Assembly: GCA_020847275.1 (NCBI GenBank)
Contig: JADLCI010000007.1
Span: 108,272-172,271 of the forward strand
Source of the DNA: Candidatus Nomurabacteria bacterium
GTDB taxonomy: Bacteria; Patescibacteriota; Minisyncoccia; Phycocordibacterales; JACOZG01
Direction of reading: 5' to 3'
Length of the DNA: 64,000 bases
Each line of letters opens with the position of its first letter. Position 1 is the stretch's first letter. Position numbers and translations under genes: made by a program. The notes below the pieces were generated by a model, which was not told the origin of the DNA, did not search any database, and saw nothing but the letters and a program-made list of their open reading frames with translations. Shown piece by piece: positions 11,300-63,394 of the stretch.

Positions 11300-11308
11300 A
11301 GTTTTCTT

Positions 11309-44437: not shown

Positions 44438-44522
44438 GGAGGGTTCGCATAGCGGTCTAGTGCGCACGCTTGGAAAGCGTGTGTGGGGCAACCCACCGAG
44501 AGTTCGAATCTCTCACCCTCCG
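44438..44522 (+). tRNA. tRNA-Ser (GGA), type II with a long variable arm
   Basis: Acceptor GGAGGGT/ACCCTCC + G. Anticodon stem CACGC/GCGTG with loop TTGGAAA. Long variable arm. T-arm GAGAG-TTCGAAT-CTCTC. Confidence 0.75.
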
Positions 44523-44649
44523 CCCACAGTATTTAGTATCGGCAGACGCGAGTGCCCGCAATATAGTTAGATACTTACCTGGGTTGACATTTGCGATACA
44601 AACTCTAGGATTAGCTCCGGCTGCACTTTTACAGAAAGGAGTGAAAATC

Positions 44650-45753
44650 ATGTCTAGGCCCGTGGTAGTAACATTGCCAATTACACCCCGCCATACTCCC
44701 GGACTCGGCCTGATGCTGATACCGCTGGTAATGGACATTATCAGACAGCAGATGGACGGCACCGGCGTGTTGGCCCTAAACGTCAATGGCTCAAAACTTG
44801 GAAGCGTTAATGTTGAGCCACACGTACTCGGATATCTCAAGGTCTGCCAGCAGGTTGGTATCGTACCGAACGTTGTTTGGCGCGACGATCAGCAGGAAAA
44901 CGTTTATTGGATCAACCAATTCTTCAAGCAACTTACCGACGCCGGACTAATCTTCCGGGCCAAAAGGGCAGTTAAGCGCTGTCCCTGCCGGATTGTAGAG
45001 ACTCTAGCCAATGCCGAGAATTTTTCGGATGCCAGAAAGTTGTATCACTGGACTGGCAATGTTTGCTTGTGCAAAATTTGCCAATTGCCAGTGTATGAGG
45101 AAAGTGATGATGTCTACCTTTTTAGGCTACCAAAGCCAAAGAAGGGGTTTGTCGTTACACCCGAATTTACTCAAGGGGAAATTGCAAATCTGGCCAGTAG
45201 ATTTACTGGAGCAGAGTTGCTGATCTCTCGAACACGTCAATCGGCCATACCTTTATGGGTTGGTCGGGAGCGAATTTTCCTTGACCCCGACTTTACCTGG
45301 CAGCTATATCTCCCGATTCTGTGGCATTGTGGTCATCGTCCAACGGTCATGATCGGTAGCCAGAAGAATCTCTTTGGTTGCTATTTGGCCATGCTTCTGT
45401 TGGAAATCTTGGTTGGTGATCAAGTAAACTTGGTCATACCAGCTTACTGCCAGACCAAAAGTCCGGCGGATGCCACAATCATGGGACGCTTCCTTGAGTG
45501 GAACAGATCAACTGTTCGTTTGTTTCTGGCCGCTCACGTGGCCTACCATGTCAAGGATACTCGTTTTGATGTTTCGCTCTTGCGGAATATCCAGAACCTT
45601 AGTCTCATCCTTGGTGGCCAAGTAGCTACGTCATCGGGAGCTCGATCGCTCGAACAAAGCCTGTCTCGGTCAAGCGCTCGGCAATTGCGTCAGCGTCTGC
45701 TCGAGGCTCGGCGATCAGGTGTAATTGATTCACTAATCTTGGAACTTTCGTAA
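44650..45753 (+). CDS. Degenerate class-I aminoacyl-tRNA-synthetase-like protein (MetRS-like catalytic core, 367 aa) lacking an intact HIGH/KMSKS and an anticodon-binding domain
   Basis: PITPRHTPGLGLMLIPLVMDIIRQQMDGTGV aligns to the aaRS P-x-x-x-G-x-x-H-x-G-H...D.I.RY..M.G region, with HLGH replaced by GLGL. CPC...CLCKIC Zn knuckle as in the MetRS CP domain. KMSKS position reads QTKSP. AAAGGAG SD before the ATG. GC-elevated. Confidence 0.5.
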   Translation: MSRPVVVTLPITPRHTPGLGLMLIPLVMDIIRQQMDGTGVLALNVNGSKLGSVNVEPHVLGYLKVCQQVGIVPNVVWRDDQQENVYWINQFFKQLTDAGLIFRAKRAVKRCPCRIVETLANAENFSDARKLYHWTGNVCLCKICQLPVYEESDDVYLFRLPKPKKGFVVTPEFTQGEIANLASRFTGAELLISRTRQSAIPLWVGRERIFLDPDFTWQLYLPILWHCGHRPTVMIGSQKNLFGCYLAMLLLEILVGDQVNLVIPAYCQTKSPADATIMGRFLEWNRSTVRLFLAAHVAYHVKDTRFDVSLLRNIQNLSLILGGQVATSSGARSLEQSLSRSSARQLRQRLLEARRSGVIDSLILELS

Positions 45754-45763
45754 GGAGCCAGTG

Positions 45764-46492
45764 ATGAAAGAATTGGAATGGTTAGTAAGTGGATGCGAAC
45801 GTGTCTTTGGAAACAACTTGCGTTGCATTCTTCTCTTGGGTTCGGTTCAGCACGGCGACACAACGCCGTTCTCCGACACCGATCTCGTTGTCGTAATTGG
45901 CAGCATGAGTCTGGCGGAGACGACACAGTTTCGGACGCTGGTCCGATCAGCCGAGATGTTGATTGATTGTTCCCTGGTTTGCCAAGATGAACTTCCGGTC
46001 AGTTCAGACCATTTTCATCTTGGTTCGCATGGTTGCTATCACCTAGAGTTGGTGCTTAAACACACCCGCTGTCTTTGGGGCAGAAATATCCTTCTGGACT
46101 TACCCAGTCCAACTGAAGAAGCCATACGGCATAGTGTGGCCGAGAAAATCTCTGAGTACACTTGGTGGGTTCGGCGAATGTTCGTTGAGTCGAATCGCCA
46201 GCGTTCGCTTGAGACAAACTACCAACTGAACAGCCGTCTGATCAAGGTGGTGCGAGATCTACTCTATCTGACAGACCACCACGGTCTCGACCAGTCCTTG
46301 GGGGAAACGATTGGGTTGTTTTTGAACAAGTATGGAGAACAGCTCAGTGAAGCAGAGCGGTTGGCCTTGCTTGGGCTAGCCGATTCTGGTCGCATTGCCA
46401 GCAATGTTGCCAACATGAGCGAGGGATATCTCGCAACACGATATTCACTGGTCAATTTTGTCTACAAACGAATGACCGAATTGGCCCTCTGA
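45764..46492 (+). CDS. Nucleotidyltransferase of the minimal Pol-beta fold (ANT/AadA-like architecture: N-terminal NTase plus C-terminal helical domain)
   Basis: GS-x10-DTD motif (LLLGSVQHGDTTPFSDTDLVVVI). AAGGAG SD overlaps the upstream stop, so the two genes form an operon. Confidence 0.6.
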   Translation: MKELEWLVSGCERVFGNNLRCILLLGSVQHGDTTPFSDTDLVVVIGSMSLAETTQFRTLVRSAEMLIDCSLVCQDELPVSSDHFHLGSHGCYHLELVLKHTRCLWGRNILLDLPSPTEEAIRHSVAEKISEYTWWVRRMFVESNRQRSLETNYQLNSRLIKVVRDLLYLTDHHGLDQSLGETIGLFLNKYGEQLSEAERLALLGLADSGRIASNVANMSEGYLATRYSLVNFVYKRMTELAL

Positions 46493-46496
46493 ATCA

Positions 46497-46530
46497 AGCC
46501 CGAGACTTGCGAGTCTCGGGCTTTTTCTTT
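46497..46530 (+). terminator. Strong Rho-independent terminator
   Basis: gcccgagact-tgcg-agtctcgggc perfect 10-bp stem, then TTTTTCTTT. Confidence 0.85.
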
Positions 46531-46542
46531 ATTCTTACTTAT

Positions 46543-47265
46543 ATGATTTACCGTGGCCGTCAAGGCGACATCGTATTTGAATTTTCTGTTTCCCCGGCTT
46601 CACGGGCGACAATTATTCTTTGTGACGGTCTACCTAGTGTACCTAAACAGCGTCAAGTGATGGATTTGTTGCAAGCTAAGGGCTACAATGTTTTTTTCCC
46701 ACGATATCGTGGAACTTGGGAAAGCGGCGGTAATTTTCTGGCCCAGTCTCCAGCCCTAGATATACTAGAGTTGGTCGCCCTGATTAAAAGCGGGTCGGTA
46801 ACGGAGCTGTATAGCAATCAAAAATTTAGTACCAATCCTAGGCTTTATTTGGTTGGAAGTAGTTGGGGAGCTACGGTGGCGTTGTCTTTGGCCGACAACC
46901 CTGATGTCGCCAGAGTTATTGCCTTTTCACCGATTGTTGACTTTGTTTCCCATCAACAGAACAGCCAAGGCCAAAATCTGCAGTGGCTTAAGCAGTTTAT
47001 TCGGCGAGCGTTCTATCAGGGATACCGCTTTGAGGATAAAGATTGGGAGCGAATGTTGTCTGGGGAATTATTTAAGCCATCGCTTAAATTGAAACCGGAA
47101 ACAACCACCATTGTTTATGACCGGTCTGACGAAGAAATTAGTTCTACCGACATAGAAACGTATTGCCAAATCGGCGGAGCCACGGCCGTTCAAGTTACTG
47201 GTATTGGCCATTTAAGTTTTTCTAAAATACCACCAGAACTTTGGGACCAAGTTCTGGTGGGTTGA
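46543..47265 (+). CDS. Alpha/beta hydrolase (esterase/lipase fold); start at MIYRG
   Basis: GxSxG nucleophile elbow (VGSSWGA). C-terminal His region (GIGHLSF). Confidence 0.6.
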   Translation: MIYRGRQGDIVFEFSVSPASRATIILCDGLPSVPKQRQVMDLLQAKGYNVFFPRYRGTWESGGNFLAQSPALDILELVALIKSGSVTELYSNQKFSTNPRLYLVGSSWGATVALSLADNPDVARVIAFSPIVDFVSHQQNSQGQNLQWLKQFIRRAFYQGYRFEDKDWERMLSGELFKPSLKLKPETTTIVYDRSDEEISSTDIETYCQIGGATAVQVTGIGHLSFSKIPPELWDQVLVG

Positions 47266-47282
47266 GAAGTTGGCTGTCGGCT

Positions 47283-48599
47283 TTATTCAATAGTCACCAC
47301 CTTTTTGGTTAACTTAATCCGCGATTTGAAGCAGCTCATAAGTTCTCGTTTCTCCTCGTTAGTGCCATCTTTGAGAATGTACTTGGCATAGGTTTTGAGA
47401 TCAATTTCCTCATGCTTGGCTTCGGGATCACGTACGCCCAGCACGCCAGACTGAAATCGGTTATGCCGTTTCAGCTCTTTCTCAAACTTTATCTGCACCC
47501 CAGTCTGATTCAGGTCGATCTGGTCAAGTGTTTTGGTTAACTGTTCGGTTAGCTCCTCCTCCCGCAAGTATGGATTCTTGCAACTTCGGTCTTTGGAGCG
47601 ACCGCAGCCATAGTAAATATACTTAGCCGTCGTGCCATCCTTGAGTAGCTTGTATTTCTCCTCGGCCGAAATGCCCGAGCCACACAGGCCACAAATCATG
47701 AGTTTGGTGAAGGCGAATTCGTGACTCTGGCGGACGATATTGTCCCGCTTTAACTGCTCCTGCGTCTTGTCGAATAGTTCTTTCGTGACTATCGGCTCAT
47801 GTTTGCCCCGATACCAGTTGCCGCTTCTTTTTGGATATTCAAAGGTGCCATAGTAAAAAGGGTTTTGGAGGATTCGAAATATATTACCAAGTGCTAAGTT
47901 GTGGTTACCGACTGTCTTGAAGTTGAGCTCAAATTTGAGCCAGTGGTGAATCTTCCGCCCGCTCCACTTCTCGTAGGCCATTTTCTCAAAGATTTTCTTG
48001 ATAATGGGAGCTCTCGTGGCATCCACTATTACCTGACACTTTTTATCCATCAGTTTCTGGTTCAGATAACCGGCGGGAGCCACTCCTGGCCATAACCCCA
48101 TCTCCACTCGCGTTCTCAAACCACGCTTCACATTGATGCCTCGATTGTCATTCTCCAACTTAGCCTGCGATCCCAGAATCATTAGCAAGAACTTCTCATT
48201 TGGATTGTTACTAAAACGCTGGCCAAAGGTACGGATTTCCATGAGTTTACCGGAGTCCATTAAGTCCACGATCTTGCCGAGGTCACCAGCGTTTCTTGAT
48301 ATCCGATCTGGCGCCCAGGTGAGAATGCCATTAAACTTACCCTCTTTTATCTCTTCAACAATTTCATTGAAGACTGGTCGCTGACCAGTCTCTTTGGCTG
48401 AGTGCGATTCTCGCTTCATGGTGACGACCTCCAGATTCTCTTTCTCGGCCAGCTGGAGCATCTCCTTGATTTGGCTATCAATGCTCAAGATTTGGCGTTC
48501 TTCGGACTCTGAACTTTTACGGGCATAAAGGCAGTATTTTACCCTTACAGGGATTGCTACTTTGGCCGCTACCCCTAACGGCGATATGGCTATGGTCAT
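47283..48599 (-). mobile_element. Large serine recombinase (resolvase domain + recombinase domain + Zn-ribbon), phage-integrase type
   Basis: Catalytic Ser context YARKSSESEERQILSIDSQ. Recombinase-domain and CxxC...CxxC zinc-ribbon segments. 438 aa. Confidence 0.8.
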
Positions 48600-48708
48600 A
48601 CCCTAAGGAATGACGCAACCGCCCGAAGGAGTCCAGAGCGTCCCGAGTAGGTAACCTGTTGGTAACTAAATTGCCCTTATTTTGCAACGCAAGCTAGGAT
48701 ATTGACCT

Positions 48709-50454
48709 ATGAAGACCTATGAACACTTGACTTGTTATTTACGTTCTGATAGGATGGCCCGTATCAGCATGCGCAAGGATATCCAAGCAAAACTTAAAGA
48801 AATGCCAGAGTTACTTTCCATCAGCCAGGTGGCAGAAATTTTCTCTATCCACCAGGACACCCTCCGCAACTGGGAGAAAGAAGGCATCCTGGTACCGCTC
48901 CGAGCTGGTAAGCGCGGGGACCGCAAATACCGCCCGCAAGACATCCAGACAATTGTCGACAAGATGGGTAGCAAGCTCACCCTCCCGCAACTCGAGCAGT
49001 TTCTCTGGAAGAGCGCCGACATCCTTCGGGGCAAAATCGACAGCTCTGACTACAAAAAATATATCTTCGGCCTCCTCTTTTACAAACGTATCAGCGACGT
49101 CTGGGACGAGGAATACGCGAAGGTGATGGATGAGTTCAAAGACGAGACGATTGCTCGTGCCGATTATAATCACCGCTTTCAGGTGCCGAAGGAGTGTCGC
49201 TGGTCGGTCGTGGAGGAGCGGGCAGAAAATATCGGCAAGAAGCTCAACGAGATTTTTGAGAAGCTTGCCAACGCGAACAGCCCGAAGCTCGACAGGATTT
49301 TTGAGGACCTCGATTTCGCCAACAAGGATCGTTTCCCGAATGAGACGACCCAGCGACTCATCAACCACTTTTCCCAATACAATTTTGGCGACACTTATAT
49401 AAACTCTGACCTCTTGGGCGACGCATACGAGTATCTCATCAAACAGTTCGCGGCGGACGCCGGCAAAAAAGGCGGCGAGTTCTACACCCCGCGCGAAGTC
49501 GAGCGTGTCATCATCGAGATCCTCAAACCCCACAAGAAAGACCACATCTACGATCCAACTGTCGGCTCTGGCGGCTTCCTTCTCGAGGCTTTCCATTACC
49601 TCAAAGAAAAAGAGAACGAGCAGGTGGCACGCACTCTCTATCTCTACGGTCAGGAAATAAACATCGGCACCTTTGCAATCGCTAAAATCAACATGTTCCT
49701 CCACGGTCTTGATAGCGCCGATATCCAGCGTGGGGATACGTTAGCCAATCCGCAGTTCCTTAATCCGAACGGCTCTCTCAAAACATTCGACATCTGCGTA
49801 GCCAATCCGCCCTACTCAATCAACGACTGGGAATACGAGATGTTCAAATCCGACAAATACGGTCGGATAGACGGGTACGAACTACCGCCAAATAAAAATG
49901 CGGACTACGCCTTCGTCCTCCACATTATAAAGTCCATGAACTCAAATGGTCGCGCGGGCATCGTACTCCCGCACGGTGTGCTCTTCCGTGGCGGTTCCGA
50001 GGGGCGCATCCGCGAACAGATACTCAAGAACGACCTTATAGAAGCCGTCATCGCGCTCCCGCCGAAGCTCTTTTATGGCACGGGCATCCCTGCGGCCATC
50101 CTCATTTTCAACAAGAACAAGCCGAAGGAACGTCAGGGCAGAGTGCTTATTATTGATGCCGAAAAGGATTTTTCCGAAGGCAAGAACCAAAACTCACTCC
50201 GCTTTCAAGACATACAGAAAATTGTTAAGGCCCACGCTGGGTACAAGGATGTAGAAGGATACGCTCGCGTCGTCGGCTTCAAAGAGATTGAGGAGAACGA
50301 ATTCAACCTCAACGTGCGGCGCTACATCGAGAACGGCGACAAGGAGGAAGAGGTAGATGTGTCAGTGGTCCGAAAGGAGCTCGCCGTTCTCGAGAAGGAA
50401 CGTGAGGAGATAGGTAAAAGGGTTGAAAAGTATTTAACAGAGTTGAAGTATTAA
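48709..50454 (+). CDS. hsdM: Type I R-M methyltransferase subunit HsdM with an N-terminal MerR/excisionase-type HTH extension
   Basis: Motif I DPTVGSGGFL and motif IV NPPY (VANPPYSINDW). The canonical HsdM N-terminus (LEQFLWKSADILRGKID) begins at about residue 85. Residues ~20-80 form the HTH (LLSISQVAEIFSIHQDTLRNWEKEGILVPLR). Confidence 0.85.
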   Translation: MKTYEHLTCYLRSDRMARISMRKDIQAKLKEMPELLSISQVAEIFSIHQDTLRNWEKEGILVPLRAGKRGDRKYRPQDIQTIVDKMGSKLTLPQLEQFLWKSADILRGKIDSSDYKKYIFGLLFYKRISDVWDEEYAKVMDEFKDETIARADYNHRFQVPKECRWSVVEERAENIGKKLNEIFEKLANANSPKLDRIFEDLDFANKDRFPNETTQRLINHFSQYNFGDTYINSDLLGDAYEYLIKQFAADAGKKGGEFYTPREVERVIIEILKPHKKDHIYDPTVGSGGFLLEAFHYLKEKENEQVARTLYLYGQEINIGTFAIAKINMFLHGLDSADIQRGDTLANPQFLNPNGSLKTFDICVANPPYSINDWEYEMFKSDKYGRIDGYELPPNKNADYAFVLHIIKSMNSNGRAGIVLPHGVLFRGGSEGRIREQILKNDLIEAVIALPPKLFYGTGIPAAILIFNKNKPKERQGRVLIIDAEKDFSEGKNQNSLRFQDIQKIVKAHAGYKDVEGYARVVGFKEIEENEFNLNVRRYIENGDKEEEVDVSVVRKELAVLEKEREEIGKRVEKYLTELKY

Positions 50455-50457
50455 CAT

Positions 50458-51264
50458 ATGACAAACATGGACATACAACAAGAAAAAGAGGAGAAGTTCG
50501 TCGACAAACACGATTTTTACTTTGAGGCACCTTTGTATGAAGCTATCGAAGTGAGCAGGTTGGAGGGTGACATATTCAGTGGTGATGTGGATGCGTACAA
50601 CACCGCAAGTGGTTTTGACACCACTTATGAAATAAAAACGGGTCATATCGGGTATCACGATAACGACTTCCGAGGTTTTTATACAGTTGTCCTAACCTGC
50701 AAAAGAAAGGGTGAAGATAAGTTGCGTTTTTTTGTTTACAGAAGTAAAGAGTTAGTTATTAAACTCGGTCAATTTCCGTCTTTGGCAGACATACAGTTCG
50801 CTGAAATCGGAAAGAAATACGACAGCGTGTTGCCGAAAGAAGATTTAAAAAATCTCAAGAAAGCTATCGGCCTCGTTGCGCACGGCGCGGGTGCCGGGTC
50901 ATTCGTATATCTTCGGCGGATTTTCGAGAATCTTATACTCGCAACATTCAAACAGAACATGGCTGCTGTCGGTGTCTCCGAAGCGGACTTCAAGACCAAT
51001 CGTATGGAAGATAAAGTGGAGGCGCTGAGGACGTTTTTGCCTAGCCAGCTCCTTGAGATGAAATCTATCTACGGAATTCTGAGCAAGGGCGTGCACGAAT
51101 TGAGCGAAGAAGAGTGCCTCAAGTACTTCTCCCCGTTGAAGCTCTCAATTGAACTCGTCCTCGATCAAAAGATAGAAGAGGCGACAAAGCGCGGACGGGA
51201 CGCGCTTGTTAAAAAGCAGCTACAGAATATTCATCAAGAGCTTTCTAACGGTGAGACTAAATAA
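50458..51264 (+). CDS. Hypothetical 268-aa protein inserted between hsdM and hsdS (possibly DUF4145-like helical domain)
   Basis: No catalytic motif recognised. C-terminal helical region AIGLVAHGAGAGSFVYLRRIFENLI. Gaps of 3 nt or less to both neighbours. Confidence 0.4.
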   Translation: MTNMDIQQEKEEKFVDKHDFYFEAPLYEAIEVSRLEGDIFSGDVDAYNTASGFDTTYEIKTGHIGYHDNDFRGFYTVVLTCKRKGEDKLRFFVYRSKELVIKLGQFPSLADIQFAEIGKKYDSVLPKEDLKNLKKAIGLVAHGAGAGSFVYLRRIFENLILATFKQNMAAVGVSEADFKTNRMEDKVEALRTFLPSQLLEMKSIYGILSKGVHELSEEECLKYFSPLKLSIELVLDQKIEEATKRGRDALVKKQLQNIHQELSNGETK

Positions 51265-51266
51265 GT

Positions 51267-52373
51267 ATGGCTACTGCGCCCCAAAAAAATATTCCCAACG
51301 GTTGGCAACAAGCAAGACTCGGGGATATTTCTGATATCACAAATGGAAAGACCAATACGCAGGATGCTGTTACTCACGGGGAATATCCTCTCTTCGATCG
51401 CTCGGTCGCAATAAAGAGGAGTAATAAATATCTTTTTGACGACACCGCCGTCATCCTCCCGGGTGAGGGAGCAGAGTTTGTGCCCCGCTACTACAGTGGC
51501 AAGTTCGATCTGCATCAGAGAGTGTATGCTATTTTCCCGAACGAGACGGTTTATCCTCTATTTTTATATCAATATTTGTACGCAAATCGTGCAGTCTTCG
51601 CACAAAATGCAGTCGGGAGTACGGTGAAGTCTCTCCGCCTCCCAATTATTCAAGCGGTCGATGTTTTACTGCCCACTCTTCCCGAACAAATGAAGATCGC
51701 GGAAATTTTATCCGCGGTCGATGCAGAAATTCAAAAGACAGACGAAATAATCACCTCTACAGAGAAACTCAAGCACGGGCTTATGAAGCAGTTTCTCTCG
51801 GCCAATAAAAGTTCTACAAAGAAGAGGTTCTCAGAATTGGCGAGTCTCAGAAAAGAAGCCTTCGATCCGAAGACAGAAGCGTCTGAAAAGTATGTTGGGT
51901 TAGAACATATTGATCAAAACTCAGGAGCATTGCTCGGATTTGGTGACTCCATTGAAACGGCAAGCATAAAAACAAGATTTTATGCCGGTGACATTTTGTT
52001 TGGGAAGTTGCGCCCCTATCTACGGAAATACTGGAAAGCAAACTTTAGTGGAGTTTGTACTACGGAGATACTCGTCTTCCAGCCTAAAGAAAAGAGAGAC
52101 GCCGAGTTTATTTTTTACCTTACTCAGTCGGATCAGTTTATAAATCATTCAAACTCGAAATCGTTTGGTACCAAAATGCCTCGAACAGATTGGAATATCG
52201 TTTCCGAGTTTGAGTTTTTCGCTCCCTCTCCAATAAAGAGACAGGAAATTGGGACCTTGCTGACTCTTATCGATCAAAGAACCTCAATCAACCGAAAAAT
52301 GAGAGGACGGTTAGTTCTCCTTAAGAAAGGTCTTATGCACGATCTTTTGAGCGGTAAGAAAAAAACAATATGA
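51267..52373 (+). CDS. hsdS: Type I R-M specificity subunit HsdS
   Basis: Two target-recognition domains separated by a conserved central helix (LPTLPEQMKIAEILSAVDAEI). C-terminal conserved helix. Confidence 0.8.
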   Translation: MATAPQKNIPNGWQQARLGDISDITNGKTNTQDAVTHGEYPLFDRSVAIKRSNKYLFDDTAVILPGEGAEFVPRYYSGKFDLHQRVYAIFPNETVYPLFLYQYLYANRAVFAQNAVGSTVKSLRLPIIQAVDVLLPTLPEQMKIAEILSAVDAEIQKTDEIITSTEKLKHGLMKQFLSANKSSTKKRFSELASLRKEAFDPKTEASEKYVGLEHIDQNSGALLGFGDSIETASIKTRFYAGDILFGKLRPYLRKYWKANFSGVCTTEILVFQPKEKRDAEFIFYLTQSDQFINHSNSKSFGTKMPRTDWNIVSEFEFFAPSPIKRQEIGTLLTLIDQRTSINRKMRGRLVLLKKGLMHDLLSGKKKTI

Positions 52374-53653
52374 CCACTGAAACGCTAAAGAATAAGACAA
52401 GGACGAAGGAGATATATCATGCGGCTAATACCGACCCCGTTTTCGATGTTAAGTCTCGTGAGGTAATGAGAGGGAAACTTTACGAGATCGTTTTTCCTTT
52501 CAATCGCCAGGGTAAGCAGAAGTACTCACTCATCTCGGAAATTCACTTCGATGGGGTGAGCCGTCTCGATCTCAAGGGTATGAGGGGTATGACGCGCGGC
52601 TATGGCTTCACGCAGGACACCGTCCCCATTGTATCGACTTTGAACGAAACTTTCCCCGGTGTCACAAAGATAATAATTTCTACTAAAACAACATCGATAA
52701 ACCTACGGAAGAGCGAGCTCGTGTTGAATGTCGACGACTATAAGACTATTTATTCCACAATCCGTCCTAAAAATCAGAAGCACTCTAAGGATCAGAAGGT
52801 TACGATCCATAATATTTTGGCACAAACAGGTGGACTAGGTCTTAAGGCAAAGAAAATTCCTTACGTTGCAGGCACAATTAAGGGAATTTTGAGAGAAGTT
52901 TCTTCCTCGGGCGGGAAGTTATCAGATGTCGACTCCGGCGCGCTACTTGATTTTGCGCAGAACAAGATTGAAAACTATGACGTCGACGCCGCTACGCTAA
53001 TCCATACGAAGGAAAAAATAGACAAGGTCTATTTTGAGAAAGTCATCGCGCGGTTTGAGAAACTGCTTGCCCTCAAAAAAGGGGTCGGCGCAAAGAAGCT
53101 GGAACAACGGTGGCACAATTTCTTCAAAGATAACTCTTGGATCTTCTCGTACTTGTTTGCCGCGCCCCATTTTCTTTTCCAGGATGAGTATTATGTTGGT
53201 GGGCAAAAAGGCACGGGCAAAGAAGCGCGATATGCCGATTTCATTTATAAAAATAAGCTGACGGGCAGCGCAACCATAATCGAAATTAAAACTCACAGAA
53301 CGAAAACGCTTCACAACACAGCCTACCGCTCTGCCGGGAAGGTATACCCGATTTCTTCAGATATCACGGGAGCAATAAATCAGGTCCTAGATCAAAAGAA
53401 TACCCTCCTCAAGAATTACTCGACCGTAGCGCAAGGCGATTTTGAGATCTTTGATCCGCGCTGCGTCATCGTTGTTGGCAACACCAAAGATATTCCGAAG
53501 GAGAGGGTAAAGAATTTCGATATGTTCCGATCGAATTTGAGGAATATAGAAATTATTTGCTTTGATGAACTTCTAGAAAAAGCGAAGCTGCTTTTGAGCC
53601 ATTTCATTAAGCCAAAGGGCTCCAAGAAGAAGAAAAATAAGAAGATAAAGTGA
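52370..53653 (+). CDS. Shedu/DUF4263-like PD-(D/E)xK nuclease with an unknown N-terminal domain, embedded between hsdS and hsdR
   Basis: C-terminal YADFIYKNKLTGSATIIEIKTHR (D...ExK), then AINQVLDQ, CVIVVGNTKD and terminal IEIICFDELLEKA, matching the DUF4263 layout. ATGA overlap with hsdS and a 1-nt gap to hsdR. Confidence 0.5.
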   Translation: MTTETLKNKTRTKEIYHAANTDPVFDVKSREVMRGKLYEIVFPFNRQGKQKYSLISEIHFDGVSRLDLKGMRGMTRGYGFTQDTVPIVSTLNETFPGVTKIIISTKTTSINLRKSELVLNVDDYKTIYSTIRPKNQKHSKDQKVTIHNILAQTGGLGLKAKKIPYVAGTIKGILREVSSSGGKLSDVDSGALLDFAQNKIENYDVDAATLIHTKEKIDKVYFEKVIARFEKLLALKKGVGAKKLEQRWHNFFKDNSWIFSYLFAAPHFLFQDEYYVGGQKGTGKEARYADFIYKNKLTGSATIIEIKTHRTKTLHNTAYRSAGKVYPISSDITGAINQVLDQKNTLLKNYSTVAQGDFEIFDPRCVIVVGNTKDIPKERVKNFDMFRSNLRNIEIICFDELLEKAKLLLSHFIKPKGSKKKKNKKIK

Positions 53654-53654
53654 T

Positions 53655-56561
53655 ATGAAATTCAACGAACAATACACGGTAGAAAATCACGTCATCAAGT
53701 TTCTCAAGGAGAGGCTCGGTTACGAATACATCAAGCCGCAAGAGTTTGCTAAGCTCCGCGAGTTTGAGAATGAGTACATCATTACCCCCCCACTGCTTGA
53801 GGCGGTCAAAAGGATCAATGGCATTGACGAAGATGGGGCGCTCTCTGTCGTTCGTGAGGTGAAGAAGATTGATAACAACGAGGCGTTTCTTGAAGCGCTT
53901 CGCTATGGCGTAAATCTCAAGGATCCGCAGACCGGCAAAATGCGGGACTATCTCATTGTTGACTTTGATAACCCTTCTAATAACCATTTTGTCGTCACAA
54001 ACCAGTTCTACTTTGAGGGCAACTCCGAGAATATCCGTCCAGACGTAATGGTGTTTTTGAATGGACTCCCGGTTGTGGACATCGAAGCAAAAAGTCCGAC
54101 AGCCGCAAGTAGTGTGGATTACTCGAAGGCCGTAGGGCAGATAAAACGCTACGAGCGCAATGCCTTTAAGCTCTTTTGGACTAACTGTTTCAACATTGCG
54201 ACCGACGGGCTCCAGACGGTGTACGGCGCGACCCATGCTCCTGCGCAGAATTTTCTGCACTGGAAGGACGAGGAACTTGAAAAGGCCGAGGGTGGCGAGC
54301 TAGAAATGACGCTGGTGGCTCTGCTTGAGAAGAATCGTCTCTTGGATGTTGTCCAGAACTTTATCGTCTTCGAGAAAGAGAAGGAGCAGACGGTTAAGAA
54401 AATAGCCCGCTACCAGCAACTTCGCGCGACGAACAAGATCGTCGAGCGAGTACTTGGTGGAGAAAAAAAGCGTGGGCTCATCTGGCACACTCAAGGGTCA
54501 GGCAAATCGCTCACGATGTACTTTACTGCCTGGAAACTGCGCTTCAATAAAGAACTCAAGAACCCTAAGGTGTTTATTCTCGTTGACCGCATCGACCTGG
54601 ACGACCAGATTTACGAAACATTTATTAATTGTGGCGGGAAGAATGTGATACGCGTCGAGTCACGCGTCGATTTGGAGCAGAAAATCCAGTCTCCCGAGCG
54701 CGGGATTTTCATCTCTACGATCCAGAAGTTCTCGGAGCTCGGTGATTCGATAAAGAGTTTTGATGAGAATGTGATTGTGCTCTCAGACGAGGCCCACCGT
54801 GATAACGAGGGTATCTCCGCTATTAATTTGCGGAGTGCCATGGGCAGTGCCTTCTTCTTTGGCTTCACCGGAACGCCCATCGACCGCGTCACTCTCAATA
54901 CACACCGCAATTTCGGGCAGGACGGCGAGCGATATTTGGATTACTACTCTATTCAGCAAGCGATTGACGACGGTGCGACGCTTCCGGTTACCTACGAGGC
55001 GCGACTCTCAAAATTCTTCATTGACGAGGAGAAGCTCGATAAGCAGTTTGAAGAGCTGACTCAAGGGCTCTCAGAAAAAGAAAAGGACGCGGTGGCTAAG
55101 AAGTACGGCAAGAAGGAAGCAATCGTGAAGCTCGACAGACGCATGGAAGCCGTCGCCCGCGATATCGTTGAGCACTACCGACTCTACGTAGAACCGGCGG
55201 GATTTAAGGCACAGATTGTCTGCTACGACCGCGAAGCGGTAGCGAAGTATAAGAAGCTCTTGGATCAGCTGGTACCCAAGGAGTGGTCGGAGGTGGTGTA
55301 TTCGCCCGGCGATCCAAACACCGACACGGAAGACCTGCGCAAGTACAACACGACCAAGGCAAAGCGAGAGAAGATTATCAACGAGTTCAAGGACCCTGCA
55401 AGTCCTCTCAAATTCCTGCTGGTCTGCGACATGCTTCTTACGGGCTTCGATGCTCCGGTTGAACAGATAATGTATCTCGACAAGCCGCTCTGGGATCACA
55501 ATCTCCTGCAAGCAATCGCTCGCACAAACCGCGTCTACCCAAACAAAGGCGCAGGAAAGGTAATTGATTACTACGGCGTCACCAAGAGTCTCTACAAAGC
55601 GCTCGATTTTGACGAGAGTGTGGTCGACTCGGCCATGATCAACATCGATAAGCTCAAGGAAGAGTTTGTTGAAGTGCTTGAGGAGATTATGAATATCTTT
55701 ACGGGCATCAATATCGAAGACCCGTCGATTGATAACCTGCGTCGCTGTCTCAAGATATTTGCTGAGAATTTGGACAAACAGAAATTTCTGCGTAGCAAGT
55801 ATGCGCGGCTCAAACTGTTGTTTGAGATACTCTCTCCCGATCCGTTCTTGAAGGAACACGTGCGCGCCTTTGAGTGGCTTACCAGCGTGTATTTGGCTTT
55901 CGATAAAGAATATGGGGCAAAGATGTCCGATGCAGAACTTCTCGCTGAATATGGTGAGAAAGTAAAACAGCTCATCCAGCAACGCGTTGACTACGAGGGT
56001 ATCACTAAGAACTTCCGCGAGCTTAACGTGAACGATCTCTATGTGATGGAACGGCTTAACAAAATGGACGATGAGGAGAAAGCTCTCAATCTTGAGAAAA
56101 TGCTCAAGCAGGAAATCTCCATCAACGTCGATACCAATCCAGCGTACAAAAAATTCAGCGAACGACTTGCCCTCATCCGCAAGGAGTTTGAACAGCACCA
56201 GATTGACCTCTCCGAGCGCATCAAGCGCTATCAGCAACTCCTCGAGGACATAAAGAAAAAAGGAGACGAGGCAAAAGAGCTTGGATACTCGCTCAAGGAG
56301 TACGGACTATATGTCATTTCTACCGAATTTATTGAGGGGGACAAGGATGTGATTCGAGAGTTCATTAAGGAGATGACGAAGCGGCTTGAGGATATACTCG
56401 ACGAAGGATGGCAGGAGTCGTCTAAGCGTGAAGAATTTCTCAAGGAGGTAAAGCGTATCGTGCAGGAACTTGTGCTCAGAGAGTATAAGGACCGCATAAA
56501 AGCCGCCGACTTCCAAAAATATCTCAATCGGCTGGTTGATATTGTGATCAAAAAATTCTAG
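53655..56561 (+). CDS. hsdR: Type I R-M restriction subunit HsdR (SF2 helicase-nuclease)
   Basis: N-terminal nuclease region. Walker A HTQGSGKSLT. DEAH box (LSDEAHRD). 968 aa. Confidence 0.85.
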   Translation: MKFNEQYTVENHVIKFLKERLGYEYIKPQEFAKLREFENEYIITPPLLEAVKRINGIDEDGALSVVREVKKIDNNEAFLEALRYGVNLKDPQTGKMRDYLIVDFDNPSNNHFVVTNQFYFEGNSENIRPDVMVFLNGLPVVDIEAKSPTAASSVDYSKAVGQIKRYERNAFKLFWTNCFNIATDGLQTVYGATHAPAQNFLHWKDEELEKAEGGELEMTLVALLEKNRLLDVVQNFIVFEKEKEQTVKKIARYQQLRATNKIVERVLGGEKKRGLIWHTQGSGKSLTMYFTAWKLRFNKELKNPKVFILVDRIDLDDQIYETFINCGGKNVIRVESRVDLEQKIQSPERGIFISTIQKFSELGDSIKSFDENVIVLSDEAHRDNEGISAINLRSAMGSAFFFGFTGTPIDRVTLNTHRNFGQDGERYLDYYSIQQAIDDGATLPVTYEARLSKFFIDEEKLDKQFEELTQGLSEKEKDAVAKKYGKKEAIVKLDRRMEAVARDIVEHYRLYVEPAGFKAQIVCYDREAVAKYKKLLDQLVPKEWSEVVYSPGDPNTDTEDLRKYNTTKAKREKIINEFKDPASPLKFLLVCDMLLTGFDAPVEQIMYLDKPLWDHNLLQAIARTNRVYPNKGAGKVIDYYGVTKSLYKALDFDESVVDSAMINIDKLKEEFVEVLEEIMNIFTGINIEDPSIDNLRRCLKIFAENLDKQKFLRSKYARLKLLFEILSPDPFLKEHVRAFEWLTSVYLAFDKEYGAKMSDAELLAEYGEKVKQLIQQRVDYEGITKNFRELNVNDLYVMERLNKMDDEEKALNLEKMLKQEISINVDTNPAYKKFSERLALIRKEFEQHQIDLSERIKRYQQLLEDIKKKGDEAKELGYSLKEYGLYVISTEFIEGDKDVIREFIKEMTKRLEDILDEGWQESSKREEFLKEVKRIVQELVLREYKDRIKAADFQKYLNRLVDIVIKKF

Positions 56562-56563
56562 CC

Positions 56564-57133
56564 ATGAAAAGAGAAATCGCTCTTCAAAATAAAAAGGTCA
56601 CCTACACTCTCCGGAAGAGCAAGCGAGCTCGAAGAATGCGTCTCGCCGTGTATTGTGACGGTACAATAGTTGTTACTACGCCGTTTGATCTCAAAGAGAC
56701 GGTTGCGGAGAGGTTTATCCGAGAGAAAAGCCAATGGCTTTTCTCAAAGATAGCGTTTTTCGAGCAATTCAAGGGTCTTGCAATTACTCGTTACTCACAC
56801 GAGGACTATCTTAAAAATAAAGACCGCGCTTATGAGCTTGCGATTGAGCGAGTGCAGTATTTCAACAAAAAGCATAAGTTCATTTTTAACAAGATCAATA
56901 TAAAGAATCAGAAGACTCGCTGGGGCAGTTGCTCTAAAAAAGGAAACCTAAATTTTAACTATAAAATTGTGCTGCTTCCGCAACGGCTTGCCGACTACAT
57001 CATCGTTCACGAACTATGCCACCTCAAGGAATTTAATCATTCCAAGAAGTTTTGGAATCTAGTCGAGAAAGTAATTCCTGATTATACAAGGATTAGAGAT
57101 GATCTGAAGAGAAGTGGCGTCACTTTTTACTAA
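56564..57133 (+). CDS. YgjP-like / DUF45 M48-family metallopeptidase, often linked to type I R-M
   Basis: HExxH (IIVHELCHLKE) in the WGSCSKKGNLNFNYKIVLLPQ context. Confidence 0.7.
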   Translation: MKREIALQNKKVTYTLRKSKRARRMRLAVYCDGTIVVTTPFDLKETVAERFIREKSQWLFSKIAFFEQFKGLAITRYSHEDYLKNKDRAYELAIERVQYFNKKHKFIFNKINIKNQKTRWGSCSKKGNLNFNYKIVLLPQRLADYIIVHELCHLKEFNHSKKFWNLVEKVIPDYTRIRDDLKRSGVTFY

Positions 57134-57134
57134 C

Positions 57135-57665
57135 ATGATTCATAAAATCAGAAATTTTATCCAAAGTTTAGAGAAGAGGCAGATTATCGCTTATATCGTC
57201 TTTTTGCTACTCGCCACAATCGTGTTCGTTGGAATGACCTTCTTTAAGGAGACGTTTCAAAAGATTGGATACACGTTACTTCTCATTGAACTCATTCTTC
57301 TAGTGACCGTTGCTTGGGCATTGGCCGGGCATGCGGTAATGAAATCACTCTTTGTTGTCGGCGCTAGTTTATCGCTGATCATTTTTCTCTCGCAAGCATA
57401 CTGCGGAGCCCCCAATCTTTCTCAGGCAGGTAACGATGCGCTCAAGACACTTATTGCTTTTGGTTTTATATACATCGCCACAAATTTTCTCCGAGCACTA
57501 TACAAAGAAGTCACTGATAGGACCAAGGTCCTGAGGCAAGTAAATGGCGGGAAGAGCCCGTGGTTCTTTCTTGTGCCATTTGCGTTGTTTGTCGGCTTGT
57601 TTGTATGGCAGATCGTTCAGATCATTATGCCAATTTTACAAAACCTCTGTATTTACCAAATTTGA
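57135..57665 (+). CDS. Hypothetical polytopic membrane protein
   Basis: Four or five TM helices. Starts 1 nt after the ygjP-like stop. Confidence 0.4.
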   Translation: MIHKIRNFIQSLEKRQIIAYIVFLLLATIVFVGMTFFKETFQKIGYTLLLIELILLVTVAWALAGHAVMKSLFVVGASLSLIIFLSQAYCGAPNLSQAGNDALKTLIAFGFIYIATNFLRALYKEVTDRTKVLRQVNGGKSPWFFLVPFALFVGLFVWQIVQIIMPILQNLCIYQI

Positions 57666-57769
57666 ACCTGTTGGTAACTAACGCTTCGCAATATCTCCTG
57701 ATTAAGCTAGGATGCTTCACGATAGCCAAATGTGCTATCATGCTCCTGACAATTGAATAAGCAAAAGTA

Positions 57770-57915
57770 GCCTAAACTCGGCGTTGCCGGGCATGGTGAA
57801 AAGTCCTATCAAGCCCAGAAAACCCATCATGGGGTCGCTTGATAGGCCATATCGGGAAACTGATATGAGTGGCCGAAAGGCTGCTACCCGTGGTGGGCTT
57901 TCTGTTTTTAAATAA
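57770..57915 (+). ncRNA. Candidate structured RNA (sRNA or cis-regulatory leader) with nested hairpins and a terminal U-run
   Basis: 10-bp stem cctatcaagc/gcttgatagg (57804-57846) enclosing cccat-c-atggg. catatc-N8-gatatg. gcc-GAAA-ggc tetraloop hairpin. ccc-gtggt-ggg then ctttctgttttt. No plausible ORF. Confidence 0.35.
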
Positions 57916-57959
57916 AAACAGAGGTTCATCTCGGCAGATTATTAGTAATTTATAAAACT

Positions 57960-58883: not shown

Positions 58884-58884
58884 T

Positions 58885-63254: not shown

Positions 63255-63394
63255 CTTTGCCGGGGTGATTCTCGGCGTAGCGCCGCGTGGTGATTTCTCC
63301 TGTGTCGACGTGGTGCGGCTTTTCCTTAGTCCAGTTATGATTTTTCTTGCCCATAATTAATGTTTTAATTAGTTATTAATTTTCTTACCTAATC

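What the first reader, a model, noticed from the sequence alone, without database searches (positions are those of the whole stretch)
44438..57133. A ~12.7-kb accessory island downstream of tRNA-Ser with a large serine recombinase and shifted codon usage
The stretch from tRNA-Ser runs through the NTase cassette, an alpha/beta hydrolase, a minus-strand large serine recombinase (47283-48599) and the R-M/Shedu-like operon to the YgjP-like gene. It uses G/C-ending codons (ctc, ggc, cgc) that are rare in the pilus, ligA and gro genes. A tRNA-adjacent recombinase plus stacked defence genes is the signature of an integrative defence island.
Basis: partly seen in the sequence, partly recalled or inferred. 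Interest (0 to 1): 0.55.

Follow-up and report, generated by a model that had tools for sequence, protein, structure and literature searches.

The report
tRNA-Ser-targeting serine-recombinase element with defence cargo
The flagged stretch is the tRNA-proximal part of a larger mobile element in an ultra-small (CPR/Patescibacteria) bacterium; its serine recombinase family sits next to tRNA-Ser genes in hundreds of metagenome contigs, and its restriction/Shedu defence genes fill a recurrent cargo slot between the recombinase gene and an orphan structured RNA (LOOT).

Summary
The gene content is as described: tRNA-Ser(GGA), a large serine recombinase (LSR), a type I R-M operon with an embedded SduA gene, and YgjP. 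The composition claim is weak. GC is flat, and GC3 is raised only in hsdM, hsdR and ParB-MTase. There is no repeat of the tRNA 3' end in the window.

Comparative data still support an integrative element, with different anatomy and limits.
- In the window's LSR clade, 50 of 52 first downstream tRNAs are convergent tRNA-Ser, with five anticodons. More distant LSRs sit beside tRNA-Gln, Glu, Asn or Trp.
- A conserved motif (44525-44557) abuts the tRNA only where the LSR is present.
- Relatives without the LSR have DUF192 directly after the tRNA, which is the empty site.
- The 9.0-kb R-M/Shedu block (48670-57664) is bracketed by a perfect 17-nt direct repeat. That repeat is a conserved site between the LSR promoter and a LOOT RNA gene. 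Eight loci show the slot empty.
- TerL, TerS and ParB-MTase (59.6-62.8 kb) and an XRE gene belong to the same recurrent architecture. The element therefore spans at least 19.5 kb and runs off the window.

I call it a new variant of a known kind: a tRNA-specific integrative element with defence cargo hotspots, driven by an LSR.

The parts
44438..44524 (+). tRNA-Ser(GGA): the chromosomal integration target (attB left arm, now the left half of attL)
   Evidence: ARAGORN and Rfam. GroEL-LemA-HtpX-tRNA-Ser(gga) synteny is conserved in about 38 of 60 related CPR genomes.
44525..44557 (+). Site D (CACAGTATTTAGTATCGGCAGACGCGAGTGCCC): an element-borne junction motif, the inferred P' arm of attL
   Evidence: The motif (G)ACAATTTAGTATCGGAGTGACCCGAGT abuts the tRNA-Ser 3' end in nearly all LSR loci, whatever the anticodon or the distance to the LSR. 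It is absent from 52 of 55 tRNA-Ser genes of relatives without the LSR. In the occupied/empty pair L085 and L045, the sequences diverge exactly at the tRNA CCA end.
44572..47265 (+). Cargo slot 1: promoter (44584-44611), unknown 367-aa gene (44650-45753), NTase-like gene (45761-46492), terminator (46496-46523), alpha/beta-hydrolase-like gene (46507-47265)
   Evidence: No homologue of these genes occurs in any of the 128 related LSR or ParB-MTase loci. The distance from LSR to tRNA varies from 0.1 to 6.2 kb among loci.
47283..48599 (-). Large serine recombinase (438 aa); its terminator lies at 47230-47260
   Evidence: Pfam PF00239, PF07508 and PF13408. Similar to PDB YokA and A118 Int and to NCBIfam CcrB. 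YARKSS at residue 25 and CGLC at 303. Copies 65-81% identical occur in more than 550 metagenome stretches. Terminator.
48600..48652 (-). Conserved LSR upstream block (GGGACGCTCTGGACTCC...TGCGTCAT): promoter or protein-binding region
   Evidence: Near-invariant in 22 loci with no covariation. It contains a TTGACT/TGGACT -35-like box.
48653..48669 (+). U1 (DR1), AACCTGTTGGTAACTAA: the LSR-proximal copy of the conserved U site (reverse complement TTAGTTACCAAC...)
   Evidence: Perfect 17-nt direct repeat with 57665-57681. TTAGTTACCAAC lies 63-125 nt upstream of the LSR start in about 40 of 72 loci.
48670..57664 (+). Cargo slot 2 (9.0 kb): hsdM with an N-terminal MerR/HTH_17 domain (48709-50454), unknown 268-aa gene (50458-51264), hsdS (51267-52373), sduA (52370-53653), hsdR (53655-56561), ygjP (56564-57133), membrane protein (57114-57665)
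   Evidence: Pfam and PADLOC. NPPY at HsdM residue 366. SduA carries D290...E305-x-K307. The slot is empty in 8 loci and holds 0.4-9 kb of unrelated genes in others.
57665..57681 (+). U2 (DR2): the LOOT-proximal copy of the U site, followed by a -35/-10 promoter (TTCGCA 57685-57690, TAGGAT 57708-57713)
   Evidence: Homology of this region to 15 other loci begins exactly at DR2. The same site lies next to LOOT in all loci inspected.
57769..57916 (+). LOOT RNA gene (Rfam RF03000) with its terminator
   Evidence: Rfam 81.1 bits against a gathering score of 46.4. My own covariance model scores 124 bits here and hits 28 LSR-linked loci.
57960..59376 (+). Cargo slot 3: DUF2939 protein (57960-58883) and an unknown 173-aa protein (58855-59376), both with low GC3 (0.38-0.40)
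   Evidence: The gap between TerL and LOOT is 0.1-1.1 kb and gene-free in L121, L148, L151 and L159.
59614..62819 (-). Packaging-type module: TerL (59614-61086), TerS-like HTH (61076-61468), ParB-N6/N4 DNA methyltransferase (61455-62819)
   Evidence: phrog_38 at 1e-81, terminase small subunit phrogs, and phrog_498 at 6e-75; Pfam. The same module in the same orientation lies upstream of the LSR in 28 of 37 IMG/VR loci and 11-14 of 80 metagenome loci.
62949..64000 (.). Further element-type genes up to the window end: 101-aa ORF (62949-63254, minus), endonuclease-like 102-aa ORF (63395-63703, minus), and a divergent XRE-type regulator (63837 to beyond 64000, plus)
   Evidence: A strong divergent promoter lies at 63808-63781. 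No housekeeping neighbour (DUF192 and others) appears before the window ends.

Best explanation
The flagged block is the tRNA-proximal two-thirds of one integrated mobile element. The element spans at least 19.5 kb, from 44525 to beyond 64000, in a Paceibacteria (CPR) chromosome. It belongs to a widespread family of elements.

Integration (inferred). The element's large serine recombinase integrates it at the extreme 3' end of tRNA-Ser genes. The chromosomal half-site would be the T-arm and acceptor 3' strand, ...TTCGAATC...CTCCGCC(A), which all tRNA-Ser isoacceptors share. The element supplies motif D immediately after the tRNA, so the tRNA stays intact.

Cargo (shown by comparison). The conserved backbone is D, the LSR, its promoter, the U site, the LOOT RNA gene, TerL/TerS/ParB-MTase and an XRE regulator. 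Between these parts are cargo slots that turn over independently of the recombinase. Here slot 1 holds an unknown/NTase-like/hydrolase trio. Slot 2 holds a type I R-M operon with embedded SduA, plus YgjP and a membrane protein. Slot 3 holds two small genes.

How slot 2 was filled (inferred). Slot 2 sits between divergent promoters, the LSR promoter and the LOOT/cargo promoter. Filling it duplicated the U site and promoter module, which left the perfect 17-nt direct repeat. The likely route is site-specific or homology-guided cassette insertion at the U site.

Function (from family knowledge). The cargo protects the host and the element against phage through methylation-dependent restriction and the Shedu nuclease. 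The packaging genes with no visible capsid genes suggest either a satellite-like or PICI-like lifestyle, or a prophage whose structural genes lie beyond the window.
For: LSR identity.

Family size: more than 550 stretches at 65-81% identity.

tRNA linkage:
- 43 of 44 first downstream tRNAs are convergent tRNA-Ser, with 5 anticodons.
- In the main LSR clade the count is 50 tRNA-Ser and 2 tRNA-Asp. Distant clades sit beside tRNA-Gln (4 loci), Glu, Asn and Trp.

Junction motif D is present with the LSR and absent without it.

Empty sites:
- In L045 and L063 the tRNA-Ser CCA end is followed within 3 nt by the DUF192 gene.
- DUF192 lies 0-6.5 kb from this tRNA in 13 relatives.
- It is absent from the window up to 64 kb, and from the 10 kb beyond the LSR in L085.
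- None of the block's genes is syntenic in 38 relatives that have HtpX-tRNA-Ser.

Slot 2:
- The 17-nt repeat is exact, against a chance expectation of about 0.
- The U site sits at a fixed distance from the LSR.
- Homology on the LOOT side starts exactly at DR2.
- The slot is empty in 8 loci and filled in at least 10.
- L144 and L120 share sequence up to the left edge of AGTTACCAAC and differ beyond it.
- Homologous R-M cargo (HsdM 72-77% identical) lies next to LSRs no closer than 66-70%, while the closest LSRs (78-81%) carry other cargo. Cargo therefore moves independently of the recombinase.

Packaging module linkage.

Shared raised GC3 of LSR, hsdM, hsdR, TerL and ParB-MTase.
Against: - No att site at the far end was found. 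The window ends first, and no recurrent junction lies upstream of ParB-MTase in other loci. Only one candidate was seen, in L147.
- No closely related genome was available. The best relative has 70% HtpX identity, so the empty-site evidence comes from different species.
- GC is flat and most cargo genes have backbone-like codon usage.
- No capsid, portal or tail genes were detected near any family member.
- In five loci the packaging module lies inside slot 2 (between LOOT and the LSR) rather than beyond LOOT. The backbone order is therefore not fixed, and the packaging module could itself be cargo or a neighbouring element.
- R-M operons next to the LSR in L158, L170 and L115 lack LOOT and U2 at their distal end.
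- No recombination activity has been shown.
Confidence: 0.7

Rival explanations
1. A shorter island. The LSR element runs from the tRNA only to just past the LOOT gene, about 44525-57930 (13.4 kb). The DUF2939/TerL/TerS/ParB-MTase/XRE region is then a separate, older element or prophage remnant stacked at the same tRNA hotspot, as in tandem accretion.
For: - The smallest constant core in the family is LOOT, U, LSR and D, about 1.9 kb.
- The position of the packaging module relative to LOOT varies: outside in L121, L148, L151 and the window, inside in L084, L134, L099, L164 and L169.
- Tandem LSR copies on one contig are common: L157, L158/L170, L162/L163, L186/L187 and L174.
- DUF2939 and the 173-aa gene have a distinctly lower GC3.
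Against: - The packaging module lies upstream of the LSR in the same orientation in 28 of 37 viral loci, and directly abuts the LSR in L084, L154, L161, L168, L176 and L178.
- No att-like junction or second recombinase lies between LOOT and TerL in the window.
- In L147 a D-type junction lies upstream of ParB-MTase, not next to LOOT.
Confidence: 0.17
2. A minimal recombinase cassette plus SCC-like stacked cassettes. The mobile unit is only D to U1 (44525-48669, 4.1 kb), with ATTTAGTwwC inverted ends. The R-M/Shedu block is a separate recombinase-less cassette, integrated at the U site by the same LSR and bounded by the 17-nt repeats, as in SCCmec composite islands.
For: - D and the reverse complement of U share ATTTAGT(A/T)(T/A)C in inverted orientation. 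Joined, they would make an LSR-type imperfect palindrome.
- The best NCBIfam hit of the LSR is CcrB.
- Cargo is bounded by a 17-nt direct repeat.
- Conservation on the LSR side stops exactly at U.
Against: - LOOT is conserved on the far side of U, and it is never found at LSR-free tRNA-Ser loci. The DNA beyond U is therefore element DNA, not host DNA.
- In 7 HtpX-linked LSR loci, no ancestral neighbour (DUF192 and others) appears within 10 kb beyond U.
- The U site lies between two divergent promoters, so it may be an operator rather than an att site.
Confidence: 0.1
3. Not a mobile element. The recombinase is a resident regulatory or phase-variation enzyme (for example, one that shuffles type I hsdS), and the block is an ordinary variable chromosomal region.
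For: - GC is flat and the codon signal is weak.
- The recombinase gene lies next to a type I R-M operon here and in about 15 other loci.
Against: - There is only one hsdS, with no inverted hsdS fragments.
- The LSR is linked to the tRNA in loci that have no R-M.
- The domain architecture is that of an integrase.
- The LSR shows presence/absence polymorphism at the HtpX-tRNA-Ser site.
- It co-occurs with TerL, TerS and ParB-MTase, including on IMG/VR contigs.
Confidence: 0.03

Closest known systems
Phage-type large serine integrases (phiC31, Bxb1, A118, SPbeta SprA/YokA)
   Same: The domain architecture is the same: a resolvase catalytic domain, a recombinase domain and a zinc ribbon. Sequence similarity to YokA and A118 Int is detectable. 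The gene sits next to the inferred att site.
   Different: Known serine integrases usually target protein-coding genes or intergenic sites. This family sits at tRNA 3' ends, a habit typical of tyrosine integrases (Islander paper, PMC4383910). Its clades also track tRNA identity. No recombination directionality factor was identified.
Tycheposons and PICI-like tRNA-specific integrative elements (bioRxiv 10.1101/2020.12.28.424599)
   Same: Both are site-specific elements at tRNA genes, with integrase clades partitioned by target tRNA. Both have modular cargo next to the integrase, carry packaging genes without a full virion module, and stack at one tRNA.
   Different: Tycheposons use tyrosine recombinases in 910 of 937 cases and carry replication modules, and they come from marine cyanobacteria. 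Here the recombinase is an LSR, the packaging module has TerL as well as TerS plus ParB-MTase, a LOOT RNA gene is present, the host is a CPR bacterium, and no primase or helicase module was seen.
SCCmec-type composite islands (CcrAB/CcrC serine recombinases)
   Same: The recombinase is an LSR whose best NCBIfam hit is CcrB. Integration is at the 3' end of a conserved gene. Cassettes are bounded by direct repeats of 15-18 nt, and some cassettes lack their own recombinase.
   Different: The target is a tRNA, not rlmH. The repeat here is not the chromosomal att core; it is a site inside the element between two promoters. A single recombinase gene is present. The scores fall far below the Ccr equivalog cut-offs (119 against 900 bits).
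Defence hotspots of P2/P4-like prophages and satellites, and genomic islands with type I R-M in Patescibacteria (PMC12455944)
   Same: Variable anti-phage systems (type I R-M, Shedu) sit at fixed positions between conserved element genes. A type I R-M island has already been reported in a Paceibacteria MAG.
   Different: The hotspot here is delimited by a duplicated 12-17-nt site and by a structured RNA gene. The Paceibacteria report did not analyse a recombinase or a tRNA target. The P2/P4 comparison rests on my own knowledge of that literature.
Integrons (cassette capture next to the integrase promoter)
   Same: Cargo is inserted at a specific short site directly upstream of, and divergent from, the recombinase gene. 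The cargo is expressed from a promoter at that site, and the slot can be empty or filled.
   Different: The recombinase is a serine, not a tyrosine, enzyme. No attC-like folded sites or multi-cassette arrays were seen. The cargo is whole operons of up to 9 kb. Recombination at the U site has not been shown.

Membership tests
Large serine recombinase (serine integrase) | N-terminal resolvase catalytic domain with a nucleophilic serine in a Y-x-R-x-S context | tested here: met
   PF00239 at 2e-19 over residues 24-168. YARKSS at residues 25-30.
Large serine recombinase (serine integrase) | C-terminal recombinase domain plus a zinc ribbon domain | tested here: met
   PF07508 at 3e-15 and PF13408 at 3e-8. 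CGLC at residue 303. Matches to YokA and A118 Int extend over these domains.
Large serine recombinase (serine integrase) | Catalyses attP x attB recombination | not testable with these tools
   Only inferred, from the conserved tRNA-side junction and the empty sites.
tRNA-integrated genomic island | An intact tRNA gene at one end with the integrase gene nearby | tested here: met
   The tRNA-Ser is intact and the LSR lies 2.76 kb away, convergent. In the family, 50 of 52 loci have this arrangement.
tRNA-integrated genomic island | A displaced or duplicated tRNA 3' fragment marks the distal end | tested here: not met
   No copy in the window at up to 3 mismatches or by local alignment. The distal end probably lies beyond 64 kb, and an LSR needs only a 2-bp core.
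tRNA-integrated genomic island | Absent from the same site in related genomes | tested here: met
   38 relatives have HtpX-tRNA-Ser(gga) without any of the block's genes. In L045 and L063 DUF192 follows the tRNA directly. The relatives are distant (60-70% aa identity).
tRNA-integrated genomic island | Deviant base composition | tested here: inconclusive
   GC is 0.472 against 0.467. GC3 exceeds z=2 in only 3 of 18 genes.
Type I restriction-modification system | HsdM, HsdS and HsdR subunits in one operon | tested here: met
   PF02384 at 1e-108, PF01420 at 2.5e-21, PF04313 and PF18766. PADLOC MTase_I 1e-146, Specificity_I 7e-60, REase_I 2e-138. NPPY motif present.
Shedu (SduA) | DUF4263/SduA_C PD-(D/E)xK nuclease domain | tested here: met
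   PF14082 at 2.5e-23. PADLOC SduA at 6e-66. D290...E305-I-K307. It is embedded between hsdS and hsdR rather than standing alone. Defence activity was not tested.
Tailed prophage | Terminase together with portal, capsid and tail genes | tested here: inconclusive
   TerL, TerS-like and XRE genes are present. No structural genes were found in the window or in flanks of related loci. The window ends 1.2 kb past ParB-MTase, and CPR phage proteins may be missing from PHROGs.
LOOT RNA (Rfam RF03000) | Covariance-model score above the gathering threshold | tested here: met
   81.1 bits against 46.4, full length, models 1-121. Hairpins covary among 14 homologues.
SCC-type element (Ccr recombinases) | Ccr equivalog-level similarity and an rlmH target | tested here: not met
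   CcrB scores 119.5 bits against a cut-off of 900. The target is a tRNA.

The most novel reading that the evidence does not exclude
The constant core of the family is LOOT RNA gene, U site, LSR gene and tRNA-side motif D, about 1.9 kb. This core could be a functional unit of a new kind: a serine-recombinase platform that is specific for one tRNA and also captures whole operons at the U site next to its own promoter. That would be an integron-like function run by a serine recombinase. The structured LOOT RNA, which has had no known function or context since its description, would then take part in regulating or carrying out recombination or packaging.
Probability: 0.12. Interest if true: 0.85.

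Novelty: new variant of a known kind. Interest (0 to 1): 0.6.

Why it matters
- It describes a widespread mobile-element family of CPR/Patescibacteria, with more than 550 stretches in metagenomes. Little is known about mobile elements and defence acquisition in these organisms.
- Its serine integrases behave like tyrosine integrases. They are tRNA-specific, and their clades track tRNA identity. This widens the known target range of LSRs, which are used as genome-engineering tools.
- It gives a genomic context to an orphan structured RNA, LOOT.
- It shows how a streamlined genome of about 1 Mb holds type I R-M and Shedu defence: as exchangeable cargo in defined slots of an integrative element.
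- I found no prior description in six literature searches. The library is incomplete, so this is not proof of novelty.

Tried and rejected
- Direct repeat of the tRNA-Ser 3' end: none in the window.
- Exact-protein look-ups of the window's LSR, HtpX, ParB-MTase and HsdR to extend the contig: none on record.
- A recurrent far-end junction upstream of ParB-MTase in 28 loci: none found. Only L147 shows a D-type motif joined to a tRNA-3'-end mimic.
- T-arm-like fragments near D, considered as displaced tRNA pieces: they are TTCGAA-containing hairpins or terminators.
- L174 as a circular 12-kb genome: its ends are only 93% identical, so it is two tandem related elements, not a circle.
- The conserved block upstream of the LSR as an RNA structure: no covariation and invariant sequence, so it is more likely a promoter or protein site.
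- LOOT as a programmable guide RNA, considered from the alignment: its loops are conserved and its stems covary, which does not fit variable guide segments. This was not tested further.
- Phase-variable hsdS shuffling: there is one hsdS and no inverted fragments.
- Second U-like copies with 2 mismatches in other loci: the total count is near chance. Only the copies next to LOOT are real.
- Function of the 367-aa and 268-aa proteins: no hits in Pfam, NCBIfam, PADLOC, PHROGs or PDB.
- PHROG and Pfam searches for capsid or portal genes in flanks of related loci: none.
Full report
**Observation**

The window comes from a Patescibacteria (CPR, class Paceibacteria) genome. The best relatives of its HtpX gene are CPR MAGs at 60-70% amino-acid identity.

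- tRNA-Ser(gga) at 44438-44524.
- A 438-aa large serine recombinase (LSR) at 47283-48599 on the minus strand. It has Resolvase, Recombinase and Zn-ribbon domains and the YARKSS catalytic motif. It resembles SPbeta YokA, A118 integrase and CcrB.
- HsdM, HsdS and HsdR with an SduA gene between hsdS and hsdR. PADLOC scores are MTase_I 1e-146, Specificity_I 7e-60, REase_I 2e-138 and SduA 6e-66.
- YgjP at 56564-57133.

The 'NTase' and 'hydrolase' calls are weak. The 367-aa gene after the tRNA has no detectable family.

**Composition**

- GC is 0.472 in the block against 0.467 upstream.
- The CTC, GGC and CGC excess is confined to hsdM and hsdR.
- No second copy of the tRNA-Ser 3' end exists in the window.

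**The recombinase family is tied to tRNA-Ser**

A metagenome scan found more than 550 stretches that encode LSRs 65-81% identical to this one. In the 80 loci kept, 44 have a tRNA downstream of the LSR. In 43 of those 44 the first tRNA is a convergent tRNA-Ser, 0.1-6.2 kb away, with any of five anticodons.

I added 48 IMG/VR loci and clustered the proteins. The window's clade has 50 tRNA-Ser and 2 tRNA-Asp neighbours. More distant clades (44-58% identity) sit beside tRNA-Gln (4 loci), Glu, Asn or Trp. Recombinase clades therefore track tRNA identity.

**The junction and the empty site**

Directly after the tRNA 3' end, LSR-linked loci share the motif (G)ACAATTTAGTATCGGAGTGACCCGAGT. In the window it is 44525-44557. 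The motif stays next to the tRNA even when kilobases of cargo separate it from the LSR. It is absent from 52 of 55 tRNA-Ser genes in relatives that lack the LSR. The three exceptions are L079 (which has the LSR), L001 (contig ends 51 nt after the tRNA) and L055.

GroEL-LemA-HtpX-tRNA-Ser(gga) is conserved in about 38 relatives. None of the genes from 44.6 to 63.7 kb is syntenic there. In those relatives the recurrent downstream neighbour is a DUF192 gene, 0-6.5 kb from the tRNA. In L045 and L063 it starts within 3 nt of the CCA end. L045 is 80-83% identical in DNA to the LSR-bearing L085 across LemA-HtpX. The two diverge exactly at the tRNA 3' end.

DUF192 and the other usual neighbours (MurJ, LepA, GAPDH, RNR) are absent from the window up to 64 kb. 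They are also absent from the 10 kb beyond the LSR in L085. I infer that the LSR integrates the element at the extreme 3' end of tRNA-Ser, and that the inserted DNA here is at least 19.5 kb.

**Anatomy inside the element**

In the orientation of the LSR gene, the recurrent order is: ParB-MTase, TerS-like, TerL, a gap, LOOT RNA (opposite strand), U site, cargo (mostly opposite strand), U site, LSR promoter, LSR, cargo, motif D, tRNA-Ser.

The window has exactly this order. TerL is at 59614-61086 (phrog_38, 1e-81). The TerS-like gene is at 61076-61468 and ParB-MTase at 61455-62819. Two small ORFs and a divergent XRE regulator then run to the window end. The packaging module precedes the LSR in 28 of 37 IMG/VR loci.

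**The R-M/Shedu block is cargo in a defined slot**

A perfect 17-nt direct repeat, AACCTGTTGGTAACTAA, lies at 48653-48669 and 57665-57681. No other copy exists at up to 3 mismatches. It brackets hsdM through the membrane-protein gene, and the LSR lies just outside it.

Its reverse complement contains TTAGTTACCAAC. That sequence lies 63-125 nt upstream of the LSR start in about 40 of 72 loci, at the outer edge of a near-invariant promoter-like block, GACGCTCTGGACTC...TGCGTCAT.

The DNA to the right of the second copy, including a LOOT RNA gene (Rfam RF03000, 81 bits), is homologous to segments in 15 other loci. The alignments begin exactly at the repeat.

With a covariance model built from 14 LOOT copies, LOOT is found in 28 LSR-linked loci.
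- In eight of them (L107, L143, L144, L163, L173, L174, L175, L181) it lies about 170 nt from the LSR with a single U site. This is the empty state.
- In the window and at least nine others, 0.4-9 kb of unrelated genes sit between two U copies.
- In five loci the packaging module itself occupies this position.

Each U copy lies just upstream of the -35 box of a rightward TAGGAT/extended -10 promoter. One drives hsdM and the other drives LOOT.

Homologous R-M operons (HsdM 72-77% identical) lie next to LSRs that are only 66-70% identical to the window's. The closest LSRs (78-81%) carry other cargo. Cargo therefore moves independently of the recombinase.

It is unresolved whether filling the slot is site-specific recombination at U, as in SCC elements or integrons, or homology-guided exchange with duplication of an operator and promoter module.

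**Other slots**

The interval between LSR and tRNA (slot 1) holds 0-6 kb of unrelated genes in different loci. The window's trio there is unique. The two low-GC3 genes between LOOT and TerL (slot 3) are absent where LOOT abuts TerL.

**What the element is**

It has an integrase, an XRE regulator and a packaging-type module. I found no capsid, portal or tail genes in the window or in flanks of relatives. Those flanks hold R-M systems, ATPases and CI-like repressors.

It is therefore either a prophage whose structural genes lie beyond the sampled DNA or are too divergent to detect, or a satellite-like (PICI/tycheposon-like) element. Tandem copies on one contig are frequent. One junction, in L147, joins a D-type motif to a mimic of the tRNA 3' end 540 nt upstream of ParB-MTase. 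That fits stacking of whole elements that include the packaging module, but no such junction recurs elsewhere.

**Comparison with known systems**

The recombinase passes the sequence tests for a serine integrase. It differs from characterised ones in targeting tRNA genes, which is a habit of tyrosine integrases (PMC4383910).

The overall logic is closest to tycheposons and PICI-like elements: tRNA-specific integrases, modular cargo, packaging genes and stacking (bioRxiv 10.1101/2020.12.28.424599). It differs in using an LSR, carrying a LOOT RNA gene and living in a CPR host.

The repeat-bounded cargo recalls SCC composite islands, but similarity to Ccr proteins is far below family cut-offs. 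A type I R-M island in a Paceibacteria MAG has been reported without analysis of a recombinase or a tRNA target (PMC12455944). LOOT is listed among 224 candidate RNAs of PMC5737381, but its main text gives no context.

**Verdict**

There is an integrative element with defence cargo at tRNA-Ser, but the composition evidence is weak and the right limit is wrong. The block is a mosaic of backbone parts and cargo slots that continues to the window end.

I rate it a new variant of a known kind, with moderate-to-good interest. The reasons are the tRNA-specific LSR family, the defined cargo slot and the LOOT linkage. The main gaps are the unseen distal end, the lack of a close relative, and the absence of any functional test.

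Noticed in passing
window 57769-57916 (+); also L107, L143, L144, L151, L134, L137, L104, L127, L121, L148, L139, L084, L147, L099, L159, L028, L079, L163, L164, L169, L173-L177, L181, L189: LOOT RNA (Rfam RF03000) is encoded in the window. In 28 related loci it is linked to this LSR family, typically divergent from the LSR gene. It was not found at LSR-free tRNA-Ser loci of relatives. Its hairpins covary and are capped by GAAA-type loops.
   Followed up: yes
window 48709-50454 (HsdM residues 35-82): HsdM carries an N-terminal MerR/HTH_17 (excisionase-like) DNA-binding domain, and it is the gene next to the U site and the LSR promoter. A second promoter-like site (TTGACT-17-TAGGAT, 48727-48755) lies inside the annotated 5' end, so the true start may be further downstream.
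   Followed up: partly
window 50458-51264 and 52370-53653; L158 and L170 (between hsdM and hsdS): The type I R-M operon itself has embedded extra genes: an unknown 268-aa protein between hsdM and hsdS, and SduA between hsdS and hsdR. The homologous operons in L158 and L170 carry different small genes between hsdM and hsdS.
   Followed up: partly
window 48600-48652; 22 loci in alignment A3: The block upstream of the LSR start (GACGCTCTGGACTC...TGCGTCAT) is almost invariant across LSRs that are only 65-80% identical as proteins, and it shows no covariation. This is stronger conservation than in the coding sequence, which suggests a protein-binding or promoter element.
   Followed up: partly
L147 11280-11345: A D-variant motif (AGGAACGTGAGACGGTGTTACGCGACCG) is joined to a non-tRNA sequence, CTCACCTGGCCCGC, which mimics a tRNA-Ser 3' end. 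It lies 540 nt upstream of a ParB-MTase/TerS/TerL module. It may be an attP-like junction between stacked elements.
   Followed up: partly
L157, L158/L170, L162/L163, L186/L187, L174: Two LSR genes or two related modules lie on one contig. The ends of L174 are 93% identical over 438 nt. Tandem stacking of related elements at one site seems common.
   Followed up: partly
L182, L188, L192, L194, L204, L189, L185, L168, L135: More distant LSR relatives (44-64% identity), with the same ParB-MTase/TerS/TerL neighbours, sit convergent to tRNA-Glu, Gln, Asn, Trp or Asp instead of tRNA-Ser.
   Followed up: yes
L045 2055-2517, L063 about 11010-11440, and 11 other relatives: A DUF192 gene is the ancestral neighbour of tRNA-Ser(gga) in this clade. 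Its distance from the tRNA ranges from 3 nt to 6.5 kb, so this junction is a general insertion hotspot even where this LSR is absent.
   Followed up: partly
window 44584-44611, 48695-48700, 57708-57713: All three rightward transcription units of the element (the slot-1 operon, hsdM and LOOT) are preceded by a (A/C)(G/T)CTAGGAT -10-like box. This may be a shared promoter type or regulator site.
   Followed up: no
window 32563-33165 and 19159-19554: Two backbone ORFs are compositional outliers: GC3 of 0.70 and 0.27, against a backbone mean of 0.48. They are stronger outliers than most genes of the flagged island. I did not examine them.
   Followed up: no
window 62855-62907: A 23-nt inverted repeat (87% complementary, 7-nt loop) lies just upstream of the ParB-MTase start. 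It may be a terminator or an operator.
   Followed up: no
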